64,000 nucleotides of DNA, from the sequence record PZ445444.1; one strand, written 5' to 3'. The DNA comes from a phage. Every line of letters begins with the position of its first letter. Within the stretch, counting starts at the first letter, position 1. Below, one piece after another: positions 60,308-61,601 of this stretch. Position numbers and translations under genes: made by a program. A model generated the notes under the pieces. It ran no database searches, was not told where the DNA came from, and saw only the letters and a program-made list of their open reading frames with translations.

Positions 60308-60646
60308 ATGGCGGATACAACTAAAAAGCGTCGCCGTAGAGGCAGACCTCTGAAAGAGGAGTCCAACGCCATTCAGCTAGAGAAGAACATCCTTGATATG
60401 AAGGAATCTTTTATAGCGATGGTTCCAGAAGCTCACAAAGTTTTAAGAGAGCTGATGTTGGACCCGAAAACCAAACAAAATATTCGTCAAAGCATTGCAG
60501 AGTATGTTCTTGATAAGGCAGACCGAATGCAGGAAGAATATGATGAGATGTTTGGTGAAGAGGAAGAGGTGGTAGTAGAAGAGGCTGAAAAACCAGCACC
60601 TTTTATGCCATTCACCACAGAAATACAGCCTGTTGGCAATAGTTAA
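60308..60646 (+). CDS. hypothetical protein with basic N-terminus and acidic C-terminus
   Basis: 112 aa from ATG with GGAGG RBS; N-terminal KKRRRRGRPLK. Confidence 0.55.
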   Translation: MADTTKKRRRRGRPLKEESNAIQLEKNILDMKESFIAMVPEAHKVLRELMLDPKTKQNIRQSIAEYVLDKADRMQEEYDEMFGEEEEVVVEEAEKPAPFMPFTTEIQPVGNS

Positions 60647-60742
60647 AATATTTTCTTGACAAACTTTGCTTAACAGTGTAATATTGTAAACATGGTCTCC
60701 CACCTTTTCTGGCGGCTAAGGTGTAAAAGAAAGCCACCCAGT

Positions 60743-60817
60743 GCCCTGTTAGCTTAGTGGATAAAGCAGCGGCCTTCTAAGCCGTTGACACTGGTTCGAG
60801 TCCAGTACGGGGTGCCA
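60743..60817 (+). tRNA. tRNA-Arg (anticodon TCT)
   Basis: hand-folded cloverleaf: 7-bp acceptor GCCCTGT/ACGGGGT, D stem GCTT/AAGC, anticodon loop CTTCTAA, T loop TTCGAGT, encoded CCA. Confidence 0.75.
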
Positions 60818-60821
60818 AATT

Positions 60822-60908
60822 GGGGAGTTATCCCGTAGAGGTAGCGGTGTAGACTGTAAATCTATTGTCATTGCGACTCGGGTGGTTCGACTCCACCACT
60901 CCCCACCA
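60822..60908 (+). tRNA. tRNA-Tyr (anticodon GTA), long variable arm
   Basis: acceptor GGGGAGT/ACTCCCC, anticodon stem-loop GTAGA-CTGTAAA-TCTAT, T arm GGTGG-TTCGACT-CCACC, CCA. Confidence 0.7.
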
Positions 60909-61022
60909 AATTTATATTTTTAGATGCATAAATAATACAGATAATGGCATTGATATTTATCGTCGTTTATACTAGTCACTAACTGCTCGAAAATCAGTGT
61001 CATTATCAGTATAATTTATAAA

Positions 61023-61113
61023 GGAGGGTAGGGAGCAATGGTGCTCAAGCGGTCTTGAAAACCGTCCCGTTGAGGATGACTCGATGATGGTTCGATTCCA
61101 TTACTCTCCGCCA
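61023..61113 (+). tRNA. tRNA-Ser (anticodon TGA), type II
   Basis: acceptor GGAGGGT/ACTCTCC, anticodon loop CTTGAAA, long variable arm, T loop TTCGATT, CCA. Confidence 0.6.
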
Positions 61114-61211
61114 CATTGTTGACCTTGTAATTAAGCGAAAGCCGGAAGCAGAACCGGATTATCAAATGTTACAGTCGTCATCGCCGACTAGCAACATGGT
61201 CAACATACTGA

Positions 61212-61310
61212 GCTAGGTAAGCCCTTTGGCAAGGGCGAGGATTTTTAATCCTGAAAATAGACGAGGTAGTCGTTGAATACATAGGTGGTTCGATTCCATC
61301 ACCTAGCACC
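61212..61310 (+). tRNA. tRNA-like gene, atypical (99 nt; anticodon loop TTTTTAA suggests TTT/Lys; ~28-nt variable region)
   Basis: acceptor GCTAGGT/ACCTAGC, D arm GCCC-TTTGGCAA-GGGC, 4-bp anticodon stem AGGA/TCCT, T arm GGTGG-TTCGATT-CCATC; CCA not fully encoded. Confidence 0.4.
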
Positions 61311-61315
61311 TTTTT

Positions 61316-61391
61316 GCTGATGTAGCACAATCGGTAGTGCAATTGATTTGTAATCAATAGGTTGTAGGTTCAAGTCCTGCCATCAGCACCA
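61316..61391 (+). tRNA. tRNA-Thr (anticodon TGT)
   Basis: acceptor GCTGATG/CATCAGC, D stem GCAC/GTGC, anticodon arm ATTGA-TTTGTAA-TCAAT, T loop TTCAAGT, CCA. Confidence 0.8.
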
Positions 61392-61392
61392 A

Positions 61393-61467
61393 GGCCCTGT
61401 AGCTGGAAGGTTCAAGCAAGCGACTCATAATCGCCAGACGGTGGTTCAATTCCACCCAGGGCCACCA
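61393..61467 (+). tRNA. tRNA-Met (anticodon CAT; initiator, elongator or Ile-lysidine type not resolved)
   Basis: acceptor GGCCCTG/CAGGGCC, anticodon loop CTCATAA, T arm GGTGG-TTCAATT-CCACC, CCA. Confidence 0.75.
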
Positions 61468-61478
61468 AATAATAAATA

Positions 61479-61555
61479 CTCCGCGTAGCTCAGCTTGGTA
61501 GAGCGCCTGATTTGGGATCAGGAGGTCGAGTGTTCGAATCACTCCGTGGAGACCA
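61479..61555 (+). tRNA. tRNA-Pro (anticodon TGG)
   Basis: acceptor CTCCGCG/CGTGGAG, D arm TAGCTCAGCTTGGTAGAGC, anticodon arm CCTGA-TTTGGGA-TCAGG, T arm GAGTG-TTCGAAT-CACTC, CCA. Confidence 0.8.
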
Positions 61556-61601
61556 CTTTCAGTTATACTTTAAACATATACAAACAAAAGGAACCTTTAA
61601 A

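What the first reader, a model, noticed from the sequence alone, without database searches (positions are those of the whole stretch)
61212..61310. Atypical 99-nt tRNA-like gene with a TTT anticodon loop and an oversized variable region
Acceptor, D and T arms fold well, but the anticodon stem has only 4 bp and the variable region is about 28 nt, longer than in normal type II tRNAs, while the anticodon reads as Lys, normally a type I tRNA. It may be a degenerate or non-canonical tRNA, or a tRNA-like RNA with another role.
Basis: seen in the sequence. Interest (0 to 1): 0.5.

Follow-up and report, generated by a model that had tools for sequence, protein, structure and literature searches.

The report
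Conserved phage tRNA-shaped RNA, non-decoding
The 99-nt element is real: it belongs to an undescribed, strongly conserved family of tRNA-shaped RNAs in the tRNA clusters of rV5-like phages, and its anticodon arm is too short and too variable for it to be a normal lysine tRNA, so it probably works as a tRNA mimic.

Summary
The window is an rV5-like coliphage (100% identical to phage Murica over the tRNA cluster). At 61212-61310, inside the cluster Arg-Tyr-Ser-X-Thr-Met-Pro, lies a genuine tRNA-shaped gene, X. I collected 34 distinct homologs from five Vequintavirinae genera, metagenomes and one unrelated N4-like podovirus. Across them, 99% of cloverleaf pair cells stay paired, 13 of 22 pairs show changes on both sides, and the tertiary 19:56 elbow pair covaries (G:C to U:A). 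X is under strong purifying selection. In the rV5 clade it varies like the real tRNAs and far less than the spacers. In Mydovirus-type phages whose flanks differ by 14-28%, X is identical at 106 of 108 sites. It was inserted as a precise cassette into a podovirus tRNA cluster. It is absent from 185,579 prokaryotic genomes and 5,426 E. coli genomes.

It is not a tRNA-Lys. The anticodon arm is 15-16 nt, not 17. The loop is 5-7 nt and varies in sequence. U33 is not kept, and the only free sites are the "33/34" positions. In rV5, "UUU" appears only if the U-A closing pair is opened. The best reading is a tRNA-processed, non-decoding tRNA mimic that works through its acceptor end and loop. The partner and function are inferred, not shown. 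GenBank labels it as nothing, OTHER, Lys or TERM.

The parts
60656..60684 (+). sigma70-like promoter (TTGACA-17-TAATAT) upstream of the tRNA cluster; likely start of the polycistronic transcript that contains X
   Evidence: the rV5 reference record annotates 'P(tRNA)' at the same place. Consensus match only; no transcription data.
60743..61555 (+). tRNA cluster Arg(UCU)-Tyr(GUA)-Ser(UGA)-X-Thr(UGU)-Met/Ile2(CAU)-Pro(UGG) in which X is embedded
   Evidence: All six ordinary tRNAs have 7-nt anticodon loops with U33 and A37 and an encoded CCA.
61212..61218 (+). acceptor stem, 5' strand GCUAGGU (pairs with 61301-61307); followed by A8 A9 at 61219-61220
   Evidence: 100% of cells paired, 5 of 7 pairs with changes on both sides. 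A8 is invariant in 34/34 variants, whereas 90% of 170 ordinary phage tRNAs have U8.
61221..61236 (+). D arm: stem GCCC/GGGC with loop UUUGGCAA (U14 instead of A14; could also form a 6-bp stem with the 4-nt loop UGGC)
   Evidence: 3 of 4 stem pairs change on both sides. The second G of the loop (61229) covaries with C of the T loop (61291): G:C in 22 variants, U:A in 12, no exception.
61237..61237 (+). G26, invariant junction base
   Evidence: 34/34 variants
61238..61252 (+). 'anticodon' arm, 15 nt: stem AGGAU/AUCCU and loop UUUUA (61243-61247); alternative reading is a 4-bp stem with the loop UUUUUAA
   Evidence: 3 of 5 pairs change on both sides; fifth pair is C-G in 18, U-A in 9 and unpaired in 7 variants; the loop is 5-7 nt and its sequence is not conserved across the family.
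61253..61283 (+). expanded variable region, 31 nt: G + AAAAUA (single strand), hairpin GACGA-GGUAG-UCGUU (61260-61274), GAAUACAUA (single strand)
   Evidence: all 24 distinct variable regions have the same layout. The hairpin sequence is lineage-specific, with compensatory changes (for example GACGA/UCGUU to GACGG/CCGUU in Av-05). The flanks G-AAAA and AUACAUA are conserved.
61284..61300 (+). T arm: stem GGUGG/CCAUC and canonical T loop UUCGAUU
   Evidence: 100% of cells paired; pair 3 is U-A in 26 variants and C-G in 8.
61301..61310 (+). acceptor stem 3' strand ACCUAGC, discriminator A73 (61308), then CC (61309-61310) followed by UUUUU; the terminal A is not encoded
   Evidence: 26 of 34 variants encode U73-CCA; the rV5 clade has A73-CC or A73-CA.

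Best explanation
X is a functional, tRNA-shaped non-coding RNA and not a lysine tRNA. Proposed life cycle: it is transcribed within the polycistronic tRNA precursor from the promoter upstream of tRNA-Arg. Host tRNA-processing enzymes cut it out (RNase P at G1, 3' trimming, and in rV5 completion of CC to CCA by the CCA-adding enzyme). It folds into a tRNA L-shape with a normal acceptor/T-arm half and a D-loop/T-loop elbow. Its anticodon arm is 1-2 nt too short, it lacks a conserved U33, and it has no conserved anticodon, so it most likely cannot read codons on the ribosome. It therefore acts as a tRNA mimic: it presents an acceptor end and a short loop read by a protein to a tRNA-binding partner. 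That partner could be an aminoacyl-tRNA synthetase, making X an amino-acid acceptor kept off the ribosome. It could also be a host tRNA-targeting defence nuclease or toxin, making X a decoy or sponge. Shown: the structure, its conservation, purifying selection, mobility as a cassette, phage specificity, and loop behaviour that does not fit decoding. Inferred: processing, CCA completion, non-decoding, and above all the identity of the partner.
For: **Structure:** 99.1% of 748 pair cells are paired, against 31-45% when partners are slid; 13 of 22 pairs change on both sides; the tertiary 19:56 pair covaries G:C (22 variants) to U:A (12) (the structure-agnostic MAFFT alignment gives the same result). 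**Discrete family:** a covariance model scores members at 84-121 bits and ordinary tRNAs at 27 bits or less, with one copy per phage. **Selection:** in the rV5 clade X has 6/99 variable sites, all structure-neutral, against 50/212 in the adjacent spacers (p = 1.1e-4) and 35/481 in the tRNAs. In Mydovirus-type phages whose flanks differ by 14-28%, X is identical at 106/108 sites. **Mobility:** X is a precise insertion between tRNA-Ser(UGA) and tRNA-Asn in the podovirus UTK0002, compared with its sister phages FSL SP-076 and MY01. **Phage-specific:** no hits in 185,579 prokaryotic genomes or 5,426 E. coli genomes. **tRNA-operon context:** X lies 2-8 nt after a tRNA in nearly every relative (98 nt after tRNA-Ser in rV5 itself), and a promoter lies upstream. 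**Not a decoder:** the arm is 15-16 nt; there are about 12 loop sequences of 5-7 nt; the only variable sites among otherwise identical Mydovirus copies are the '33' and '34' positions, while C-C-A is fixed. By contrast 159 of 170 ordinary tRNAs have U33. Phages with X also have a normal tRNA-Lys and tRNA-Gly. **Acceptor end under selection:** C2:G71 in 34/34, G1:C72 in 31/34, encoded U73-CCA in 26/34. **Precedents:** host defences cut tRNAs and phage tRNAs counteract them (PMC12409363, PMC10264068). T4 encodes stable tRNA-like RNAs of unknown function in its tRNA cluster (PMC9697503).
Against: There is no expression, processing or aminoacylation data for X in any phage. In the rV5 copy specifically, opening the U-A closing pair gives the loop UUUUUAA, close to the loop CUUUUAA of E. 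coli tRNA-Lys as I recall it (not checked here). With A73 this matches the LysRS identity set as I recall it, so some decoding or charging as Lys cannot be excluded. Natural deletions of X (V18, O157 typing phage 4) show it is dispensable on at least some hosts. No partner protein was identified, and the neighbouring ORFs have unknown function. The loop differs between genera, so the family may not share one partner.
Confidence: 0.55

Rival explanations
1. X in rV5 is a working but non-canonical tRNA-Lys(UUU), with a 4-bp anticodon stem, a 7-nt loop UUUUUAA and a very long extra arm. It would be charged by LysRS and read AAA/AAG, perhaps as a replacement resistant to nucleases that cut host tRNA-Lys (PrrC, PARIS AriB).
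For: Rfam aligns it in this way and scores it above the tRNA gathering threshold, and the BASEL records annotate it as tRNA-Lys. The rV5 clade has A73 together with a U-rich loop. rV5 has no other tRNA-Lys. X sits beside tRNA-Thr(UGU), and Lys(UUU) and Thr(UGU) are the main PARIS targets, which T5 counters with variant tRNAs (PMC12409363). Phage tRNAs with altered anticodon loops have been proposed to evade nucleases (PMC10264068).
Against: The arm lacks 2 nt compared with every ordinary tRNA in these clusters, which would displace the anticodon by one base pair. Orthologs do not keep UUU: the closest genus, Avunavirus, has UUAUA with U73 or C73, and others have NCCA- or UCAA-type loops. The pair that must be opened is Watson-Crick in 27 of 34 variants. 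The 31-nt variable region and A8:U14 are unlike any tRNA-Lys.
Confidence: 0.2
2. X has no function in trans. It is a tRNA-like processing or stability element, that is punctuation for RNase P and RNase E, a transcript-end structure, or an attenuator-like hairpin followed by a U-run, kept only to help the neighbouring tRNAs mature.
For: It always lies within 2-8 nt of a tRNA in a polycistronic cluster. In rV5 its T arm and acceptor strand, followed by UUUUU, match the terminator-like scan.
Against: The flanking tRNAs already provide processing sites. Sister podoviruses have the same two tRNAs 5 nt apart without X. Selection preserves far more than a processing signal would need: the elbow tertiary pair, the loop CCA, single-stranded motifs, the encoded CCA and 106/108 identical sites. 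The U-run is present only in the rV5 clade.
Confidence: 0.1
3. X is a recoding tRNA: an opal (UGA) suppressor, a Sec-like tRNA, or a frameshift-promoting tRNA with an abnormal loop. This is what the 'tRNA-TERM / tRNA-sup(tca)' annotations imply.
For: Henunavirus-type variants have the loop (C/A/U)AUCAA(A/G), which contains UCA followed by A37. The best Rfam hit for non-rV5 variants is tRNA-Sec (29-39 bits), with a possible 6-bp D stem, 4-nt D loop and A8. Abnormal loop sizes are classically linked to frameshift suppression (general knowledge).
Against: The scores are below the Sec gathering threshold of 47, and ordinary Tyr and Ser tRNAs score similarly. The acceptor/T arrangement is 7/5 and not 8/5. 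The discriminator is U73 or A73, not G73. Position 33 is A, not U. UCA is absent from the window's copy and from 25 of 34 variants.
Confidence: 0.07
4. X is a decaying tRNA pseudogene with no function.
For: It has an atypical loop, lacks a complete encoded CCA in rV5, is lost by deletion in V18 and O157 typing phage 4, and is skipped by most annotation.
Against: The covariation, purifying selection equal to that of the real tRNAs, 106/108 identity against 14-28% flank divergence, and acquisition by horizontal transfer are all incompatible with neutral decay.
Confidence: 0.03

Closest known systems
Type II (long-variable-arm) bacterial and phage tRNAs (Ser, Leu, Tyr)
   Same: 7-bp acceptor stem, 5-bp T arm with a UUCGAUU loop, D arm, 19:56 elbow pair, an extra hairpin between the anticodon and T arms, location in a tRNA operon, encoded CCA in most copies.
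   Different: The anticodon arm is 15-16 nt and not 17. There is no conserved anticodon and no conserved U33. It has A8:U14 where these tRNAs have U8:A14. The extra hairpin is offset by conserved single strands of 6-7 and 7-10 nt, giving a variable region of 31-41 nt and a total length of 99-109 nt, against 94 nt or less for the tRNAs.
Phage T4 stable RNAs rnaC / rnaD (species 1 and 2 RNA)
   Same: Stable-RNA genes embedded in a phage tRNA cluster. rnaC has a tRNA-type T arm closed by a terminal stem. Their function is still unknown (PMC9697503).
   Different: No detectable homology: covariance model R1 does not hit them. rnaC is 139 nt with a long insertion and is not a complete cloverleaf.
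tRNA-Sec (Rfam RF01852)
   Same: Long extra arm; a D arm that can form 6 bp with a 4-nt UGGN loop; A8; a UCA-containing loop in the Henunavirus-type copies. It is the best Rfam hit for the non-rV5 variants.
   Different: Scores are below gathering (29-39 against 47). The arrangement is 7/5 and not 8/5. The discriminator is not G73. Position 33 is A. There is no UCA in the rV5 copy.
Phage tRNA variants that neutralise tRNA-cleaving defences (T5 tRNA-Lys/Thr/Asn against PARIS; proposed nuclease-insensitive phage tRNAs)
   Same: Encoded in phage tRNA clusters, with altered anticodon stem-loops. X sits next to Thr(UGU) or Asn(GUU), and in rV5 it has a Lys-like U-rich loop (PMC12409363, PMC10264068).
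   Different: Those are otherwise canonical, decoding tRNAs with a few substitutions. X has a shortened arm and a variable loop, so it would work as a decoy and not as a replacement. No experiment links X to any defence system.
Non-decoding tRNA mimics (tmRNA tRNA-like domain, bacterial Y-RNA-like YrlA, plant-virus tRNA-like structures, non-proteinogenic tRNA-Gly of Staphylococcus)
   Same: They use a tRNA shape or acceptor end for a purpose other than ordinary decoding.
   Different: There is no significant Rfam match to tmRNA or YrlA at X. X keeps all four cloverleaf arms and is a free-standing tRNA-sized gene. The comparison with Staphylococcus tRNA-Gly rests on general knowledge only.

Membership tests
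Canonical elongator tRNA (Rfam RF00005) | 7-bp acceptor stem, discriminator, 3' CCA | tested here: met
   Acceptor stem 100% paired, 5 of 7 pairs covary. U73-CCA is encoded in 26/34 variants. The window copy has A73-CC, so it needs CCA completion.
Canonical elongator tRNA (Rfam RF00005) | D arm and T arm forming the elbow (G18G19 with the T loop; 19:56 pair) | tested here: met
   The 19:56 pair is G:C in 22 variants and U:A in 12 with no exception; the T loop is UUCGAUU or UUAGAUU.
Canonical elongator tRNA (Rfam RF00005) | 5-bp anticodon stem with a 7-nt loop, U33 and purine 37 (17-nt arm) | tested here: not met
   The arm is 15 nt in the window and 15-16 nt across the family; loops are 5-7 nt; the '33' position is U, A or C. 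All six neighbouring tRNAs, and 159/170 cluster tRNAs, meet the rule.
Canonical elongator tRNA (Rfam RF00005) | Anticodon conserved among orthologs | tested here: not met
   About 12 different loop sequences. Copies otherwise identical at 106/108 sites differ only at the '33/34' positions.
Canonical elongator tRNA (Rfam RF00005) | U8:A14 tertiary pair; variable region of 4-5 nt or about 10-24 nt | tested here: not met
   A8 and U14 in 34/34 variants, against 2/170 ordinary tRNAs with that combination; variable region of 31-41 nt.
Canonical elongator tRNA (Rfam RF00005) | Score at or above the Rfam gathering threshold | tested here: inconclusive
   The window copy scores 35.5 against a threshold of 29. 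In the other genera the element's best match is the tRNA-Sec model, below its threshold, and no tRNA-model match is listed for it.
Canonical elongator tRNA (Rfam RF00005) | Aminoacylated and used in translation | not testable with these tools
   Needs tRNA-seq, acid gels or in vitro charging and translation.
tRNA-Lys(UUU) | UUU anticodon at positions 34-36 of a 7-nt loop, A73, short variable loop, conserved in orthologs | tested here: not met
   UUU at 34-36 appears only if the U-A closing pair is opened. A73 is present in the rV5 clade only. The variable region is 31 nt. Orthologs have other loops, and several relatives with X also carry a normal tRNA-Lys(UUU).
tRNA-Sec (RF01852) | Gathering score of 47, 8/5 acceptor/T arrangement, UCA anticodon, G73 | tested here: not met
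   29-39 bits, 7/5 arrangement, U73 or A73; UCA in only 9/34 variants and with A33.
Suppressor tRNA ('tRNA-TERM' in some GenBank records) | Anticodon complementary to a stop codon in a canonical loop | tested here: not met
   Not present in the window copy. The Henunavirus-type copies have UCA but in a non-canonical loop.
T4 rnaC/rnaD stable RNAs | Homologous sequence or structure | tested here: not met
   Covariance model R1 finds no match to rnaC or rnaD in the T4 tRNA region. They are analogous in context only.
tRNA pseudogene | Relaxed constraint and structure-breaking substitutions | tested here: not met
   6/99 variable sites, all structure-neutral, against 50/212 in the spacers (p = 1.1e-4). 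106/108 identical sites against 14-28% flank divergence.
Glycine-identity acceptor (E. coli GlyRS set: U73, G1-C72, C2-G71, C35, C36; PMC9976931) | All five determinants present | tested here: inconclusive
   16/34 variants (Seuna/Mydo type) carry U73, G1-C72 (one of the 16 has G1·U72), C2-G71 and a fixed C-C-A in the loop. The window copy has A73 and no CC. The phage tRNA-Cys shares the same acceptor end. Charging was not tested.

The most novel reading that the evidence does not exclude
X is a modular tRNA decoy or acceptor scaffold: an ultra-conserved tRNA body that host enzymes mature, carrying a short, exchangeable loop and matching discriminator that copy the protein-recognition determinants of a particular host tRNA but not its decoding function. 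The Seuna/Mydo copies carry the glycine set (U73, G1-C72, C2-G71, loop N-C-C-A). The rV5 clade carries a lysine-like set (A73, U-rich loop). X would then be charged or bound like that tRNA but kept off the ribosome. It could soak up a tRNA-directed host weapon (anticodon-arm nucleases such as PrrC or PARIS, or acceptor-end toxins such as the GNAT acetyltransferases that recognise U73 and G71), or it could carry an amino acid for a non-ribosomal reaction.
Probability: 0.25. Interest if true: 0.85.

Novelty: new variant of a known kind. Interest (0 to 1): 0.62.

Why it matters
Phage tRNA clusters are now seen as part of the arms race with defences that cut or modify tRNAs, yet every documented counter-measure is an ordinary decoding tRNA with a few substitutions. 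X would be a different solution: a conserved, horizontally mobile RNA of tRNA shape that keeps the parts needed for maturation and for protein recognition and gives up the parts needed for decoding. It is present in well over a hundred sequenced therapeutic and biocontrol phages (the rV5, PVP-SE1, Mydovirus and Erwinia phage groups). It is annotated in four contradictory ways or not at all, and ARAGORN finds only 2 of 19 variants. A family definition would correct those annotations, and the covariance model built here gives a clean separation. It also offers a tractable system for asking what non-decoding tRNA-like RNAs in phages do, a question left open since the T4 species 1 and 2 RNAs were found: natural deletion variants and easy E. 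coli genetics are available.

Tried and rejected
1. **Partner protein.** A 203-aa coiled-coil protein (phrog_9325) lies near X in the Seuna, Mydo and Henuna genera and in the podovirus UTK0002. It also occurs in Schitoviridae that lack X, is absent from this window, and has no rV5-like phage among its listed hits. Rejected as a linked gene.
2. **Homology to T4 rnaC/rnaD.** No covariance-model hit. They are analogues only.
3. **tRNA-Sec membership.** The alignment is forced and the score is below threshold.
4. **Loop-to-hairpin pseudoknot.** UCCA:UGGA pairing fits the Seunavirus type, L060, L062 and L063 (GCCA:UGGC). It fails for the common GAACUAACAGUA hairpin type and for L051. Rejected as a family feature.
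5. **Acceptor end unique to tRNA-Gly.** The phage tRNA-Cys has the same U73, G1:C72 and C2:G71, so the acceptor end alone does not assign an identity.
6. **Chance pattern hits.** L016-L042 (L037-L041 included) and L044-L046 are chance matches, mostly in coding-like sequence, and are not the element.
7. **Parsing errors.** My first two scripts were faulty: a regex that could not enumerate loop lengths and an off-by-two T-loop offset. Both were redone.
8. **Neighbouring ORFs.** All belong to families of unknown function.
9. **Literature.** The rV5 genome paper lists six tRNAs and does not mention X. No paper found in the held library describes this family.

Full report
**Source and context.** Over the 901-nt tRNA cluster region queried (60700-61600), the window is 100% identical to Escherichia phage Murica and about 99.6-99.9% identical to rV5, FFH2 and the BASEL Vequintaviruses. 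The finding lies in a tRNA cluster: Arg(UCU) 60743-60817, Tyr(GUA) 60822-60908, Ser(UGA) 61023-61113, X 61212-61310, Thr(UGU) 61316-61391, Met/Ile2(CAU) 61393-61467 and Pro(UGG) 61479-61555. A sigma70-like promoter (TTGACA-17-TAATAT, 60656-60684) precedes the cluster, where the rV5 reference record annotates 'P(tRNA)'.

**The observation.** Rfam's tRNA model scores it 35.5 bits, just above the gathering score of 29. The sequence folds better than all 200 shuffles, z = -3.66. Public records disagree on what it is. The rV5 reference and its genome paper list six tRNAs and omit it (PMC3606486). Murica labels it 'tRNA-OTHER (Asp|Gly)', the BASEL phages label it 'tRNA-Lys (AAA)', and others use 'tRNA-TERM' or 'tRNA-???(atcc)'. 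So the object is real, and its naming is purely mechanical and inconsistent.

**Homologs.** BLAST and motif scans recovered 34 distinct variants. They come from these sources:
- Vequintavirus and Avunavirus (Av-05).
- Seunavirus (PVP-SE1, SSE121, NINP13076 and others).
- Mydovirus (Klebsiella and Raoultella phages) and Henunavirus (Erwinia phages Hena1 and pEp_SNUABM_01).
- Several metagenomic phages, and one Schitoviridae podovirus (Salmonella phage UTK0002).

The invariant motif ATACATAGGYGGTTMGATTCC has no match in one genome for each of 185,579 bacterial and archaeal species. X has no BLAST match in 5,426 complete E. coli genomes. X is phage-specific. A covariance model built from 19 variants scores family members at 84-121 bits and every ordinary tRNA, including the long-arm Ser, Tyr and Leu, at 27 bits or less. 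The only intermediate score, 31 bits, is a deletion chimera. There is one copy per phage. ARAGORN detects only 2 of 19 variants, and outside rV5 Rfam's tRNA model does not pick the element up.

**Structure.**
- On a MAFFT alignment made without structural information, 99.0% of cloverleaf pair cells are standard pairs, against 31-45% when partners are slid, and 11 of 22 pairs change on both sides.
- With all 34 variants the figures are 99.1% and 13 of 22.
- The second G of the D loop and the C of the T loop, which form the G19:C56 elbow pair of tRNA, switch together to U and A in all 12 Mydovirus-type variants, with no exception. This is direct evidence for an L-shaped fold.
The family consensus is therefore a 5-bp stem closing a short loop.
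- In rV5 this gives AGGAU-UUUUA-AUCCU. The arm is 15 nt here and 15-16 nt in the family, against 17 nt in every normal tRNA.
- The region between this arm and the T stem is 31 nt in rV5 and 35-41 nt elsewhere. It always consists of G plus an A-rich strand, a hairpin whose sequence is lineage-specific and shows compensatory changes, and the invariant AUACAUA.
- A8, U14, G26 and C2:G71 are invariant. Only 2 of 170 ordinary tRNAs from the same clusters combine A8 with U14, 159 of 170 have U33, and none is longer than 94 nt.

**Selection.** Across seven rV5-clade haplotypes X has 6 variable sites in 99. All are structure-neutral: unpaired position 9, two hairpin-loop bases, G·U to G-C, U-A to U·G, and the tail. 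The two adjacent long spacers have 50 variable sites in 212 (Fisher p = 1.1e-4), and the six tRNAs have 35 in 481 (p = 0.83). In four Mydovirus-type phages whose 1.2-kb flanks differ by 14-28% pairwise, X is identical at 106 of 108 positions. The two variable sites are adjacent loop positions: CAUCCA, CCACCA, CCGCCA and CUUCCA. X is clearly not a decaying pseudogene.

**Mobility.** UTK0002 has X precisely between tRNA-Ser(UGA) and tRNA-Asn, whereas its sister podoviruses FSL SP-076 and MY01 have those two tRNAs 5 nt apart. X is the segment of that locus most similar to the Vequintavirinae, at 88.6% over 114 nt. X therefore travels as a self-contained cassette. A nearby shared protein, phrog_9325, proved unlinked.

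**Why it is not a lysine tRNA.**
- 'UUU' occupies positions 34-36 only if the U-A closing pair is opened.
- The loop is not conserved. It is UUAUA in the closest genus (with U73 or C73), AUCAA in the Henunavirus type, and C-N-N-C-C-A in the Seuna/Mydo type.
- Relatives that carry X also encode a normal tRNA-Lys(UUU) and tRNA-Gly(UCC).
- Where constraint can be measured, the free sites are those equivalent to 33 and 34, while C-C-A is fixed. A codon reader would show the opposite pattern. The observed pattern is what one expects if a protein reads the loop.
- All six neighbouring tRNAs have textbook loops and an encoded CCA.

**What it probably does.** These steps are inferred. X is co-transcribed with the tRNAs, and the host tRNA-processing machinery excises and finishes it. 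Twenty-six of 34 variants encode U73-CCA, while rV5 encodes A73-CC followed by UUUUU, so it would need trimming and addition of the terminal A. X then folds as an L. Because the anticodon arm is short and lacks U33 and a stable anticodon, it should not decode. Selection on the acceptor end and on part of the loop points to recognition by a tRNA-binding protein.

Two observations give this some shape. First, the Seuna/Mydo copies carry the full E. coli glycine identity set: U73, G1-C72, C2-G71, and C-C where C35 and C36 would lie (PMC9976931). However, the phage tRNA-Cys shares that acceptor end. Second, the rV5 clade has A73 with a U-rich loop, which as I recall matches the lysine identity set (from memory, not checked here). 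Host defences that cut tRNA-Lys, tRNA-Thr and tRNA-Asn, and phage tRNAs that counter them, are documented (PMC12409363; PMC10264068), and X usually sits next to Thr(UGU) or Asn(GUU). I therefore favour a non-decoding tRNA mimic, either a decoy or an amino-acid acceptor kept off the ribosome. I cannot name the partner.

**Rivals.** These are a nuclease-resistant non-canonical tRNA-Lys (0.2), a cis-acting processing element (0.1), a recoding tRNA (0.07) and a pseudogene (0.03).

**Comparison with known families.**
- X fails defining features of a canonical tRNA: loop size and U33, a conserved anticodon, U8:A14, and the size of the variable region.
- It fails the tests for tRNA-Lys.
- It fails the tests for tRNA-Sec: 29-39 bits against 47, a 7/5 arrangement, and no G73.
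- It has no match to tmRNA or YrlA.
- The nearest functional analogues are T4 rnaC and rnaD, stable RNAs in the T4 tRNA cluster whose function is still unknown (PMC9697503). They are not homologs of X.
- A large survey noted that unrecognised tRNA-like structures exist in phages, without describing this one (PMC10690425).

**Verdict.** The Lys reading is an artefact of forcing a 7-nt loop. The element belongs to a previously undescribed, strongly constrained and mobile family of tRNA-shaped RNAs. Its function is unknown. The best-supported mechanism is tRNA mimicry without decoding.

Noticed in passing
window 61023-61113: The cluster's tRNA-Ser(UGA) is itself atypical. It fails the Rfam tRNA gathering score, matches the tRNA-Sec model best (41.5 bits against a threshold of 47), and has A8 instead of U8. 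A8 recurs in tRNA-Ser(UGA) and tRNA-Thr(UGU) of several related phages (11 of 170 tRNAs).
   Followed up: partly
window 61393-61467: The tRNA with anticodon CAU is called tRNA-Met by ARAGORN and in the rV5 record, but tRNA-Ile (AUA) in the BASEL records. It is probably a lysidine-dependent tRNA-Ile2.
   Followed up: no
L007 about 855-945 (phage V18) and L008 about 840-927 (O157 typing phage 4): Natural deletions fuse the 5' part of tRNA-Tyr to the 3' part of X. The junction is in the variable arm in V18 and in the T arm in typing phage 4. The deletions remove the Tyr 3' half, tRNA-Ser, the spacer and the X 5' half. X, Tyr and Ser are therefore dispensable for these isolates.
   Followed up: partly
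GenBank MG0656xx records (hits H5-H8, H29, H30, H35-H39 and others): Eighteen records named 'Campylobacter phage' are 99.6-100% identical to rV5-like coliphages across the tRNA cluster. They are probably mislabelled or come from contaminating coliphages.
   Followed up: no
L074 7862-7934; L084 2791-2865: Metagenomic relatives that carry X also encode a tRNA with a CUA anticodon (amber-suppressor-like; ARAGORN labels it 'Pyl').
   Followed up: no
L005 1497-1604 (Salmonella phage GE_vB_MG, record marked UNVERIFIED): Compared with PVP-SE1, its X copy lacks one C in the loop (CAUCA against CAUCCA) and one C in the 3' end (UCAA against UCCA). These are probably homopolymer sequencing errors and not biology.
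   Followed up: no
window 60308-60646 (phrog_3330); L049 3698-4306, L051 606-1217 (phrog_9325): Two protein families of unknown function are repeatedly found in or beside phage tRNA clusters. phrog_3330 lies next to the rV5 cluster and inside Seuna/Mydo clusters. The coiled-coil phrog_9325 is shared by Vequintavirinae and N4-like Schitoviridae.
   Followed up: partly
window 60909-61022 and 61114-61211: Two long spacers (114 and 98 nt) in the cluster have no Rfam match and are 23-25% variable within the rV5 clade. The first holds a promoter-like site (TCGAAA-17-TATAAT, 60987-61015) just upstream of tRNA-Ser. The second folds modestly (z = -2.6).
   Followed up: partly
window 61282-61315: The T arm and acceptor strand of X, followed by GCACC and UUUUU, match a terminator-like pattern. 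The U-run is specific to the rV5 clade and lies directly before tRNA-Thr, so it may affect read-through into Thr-Met-Pro.
   Followed up: no
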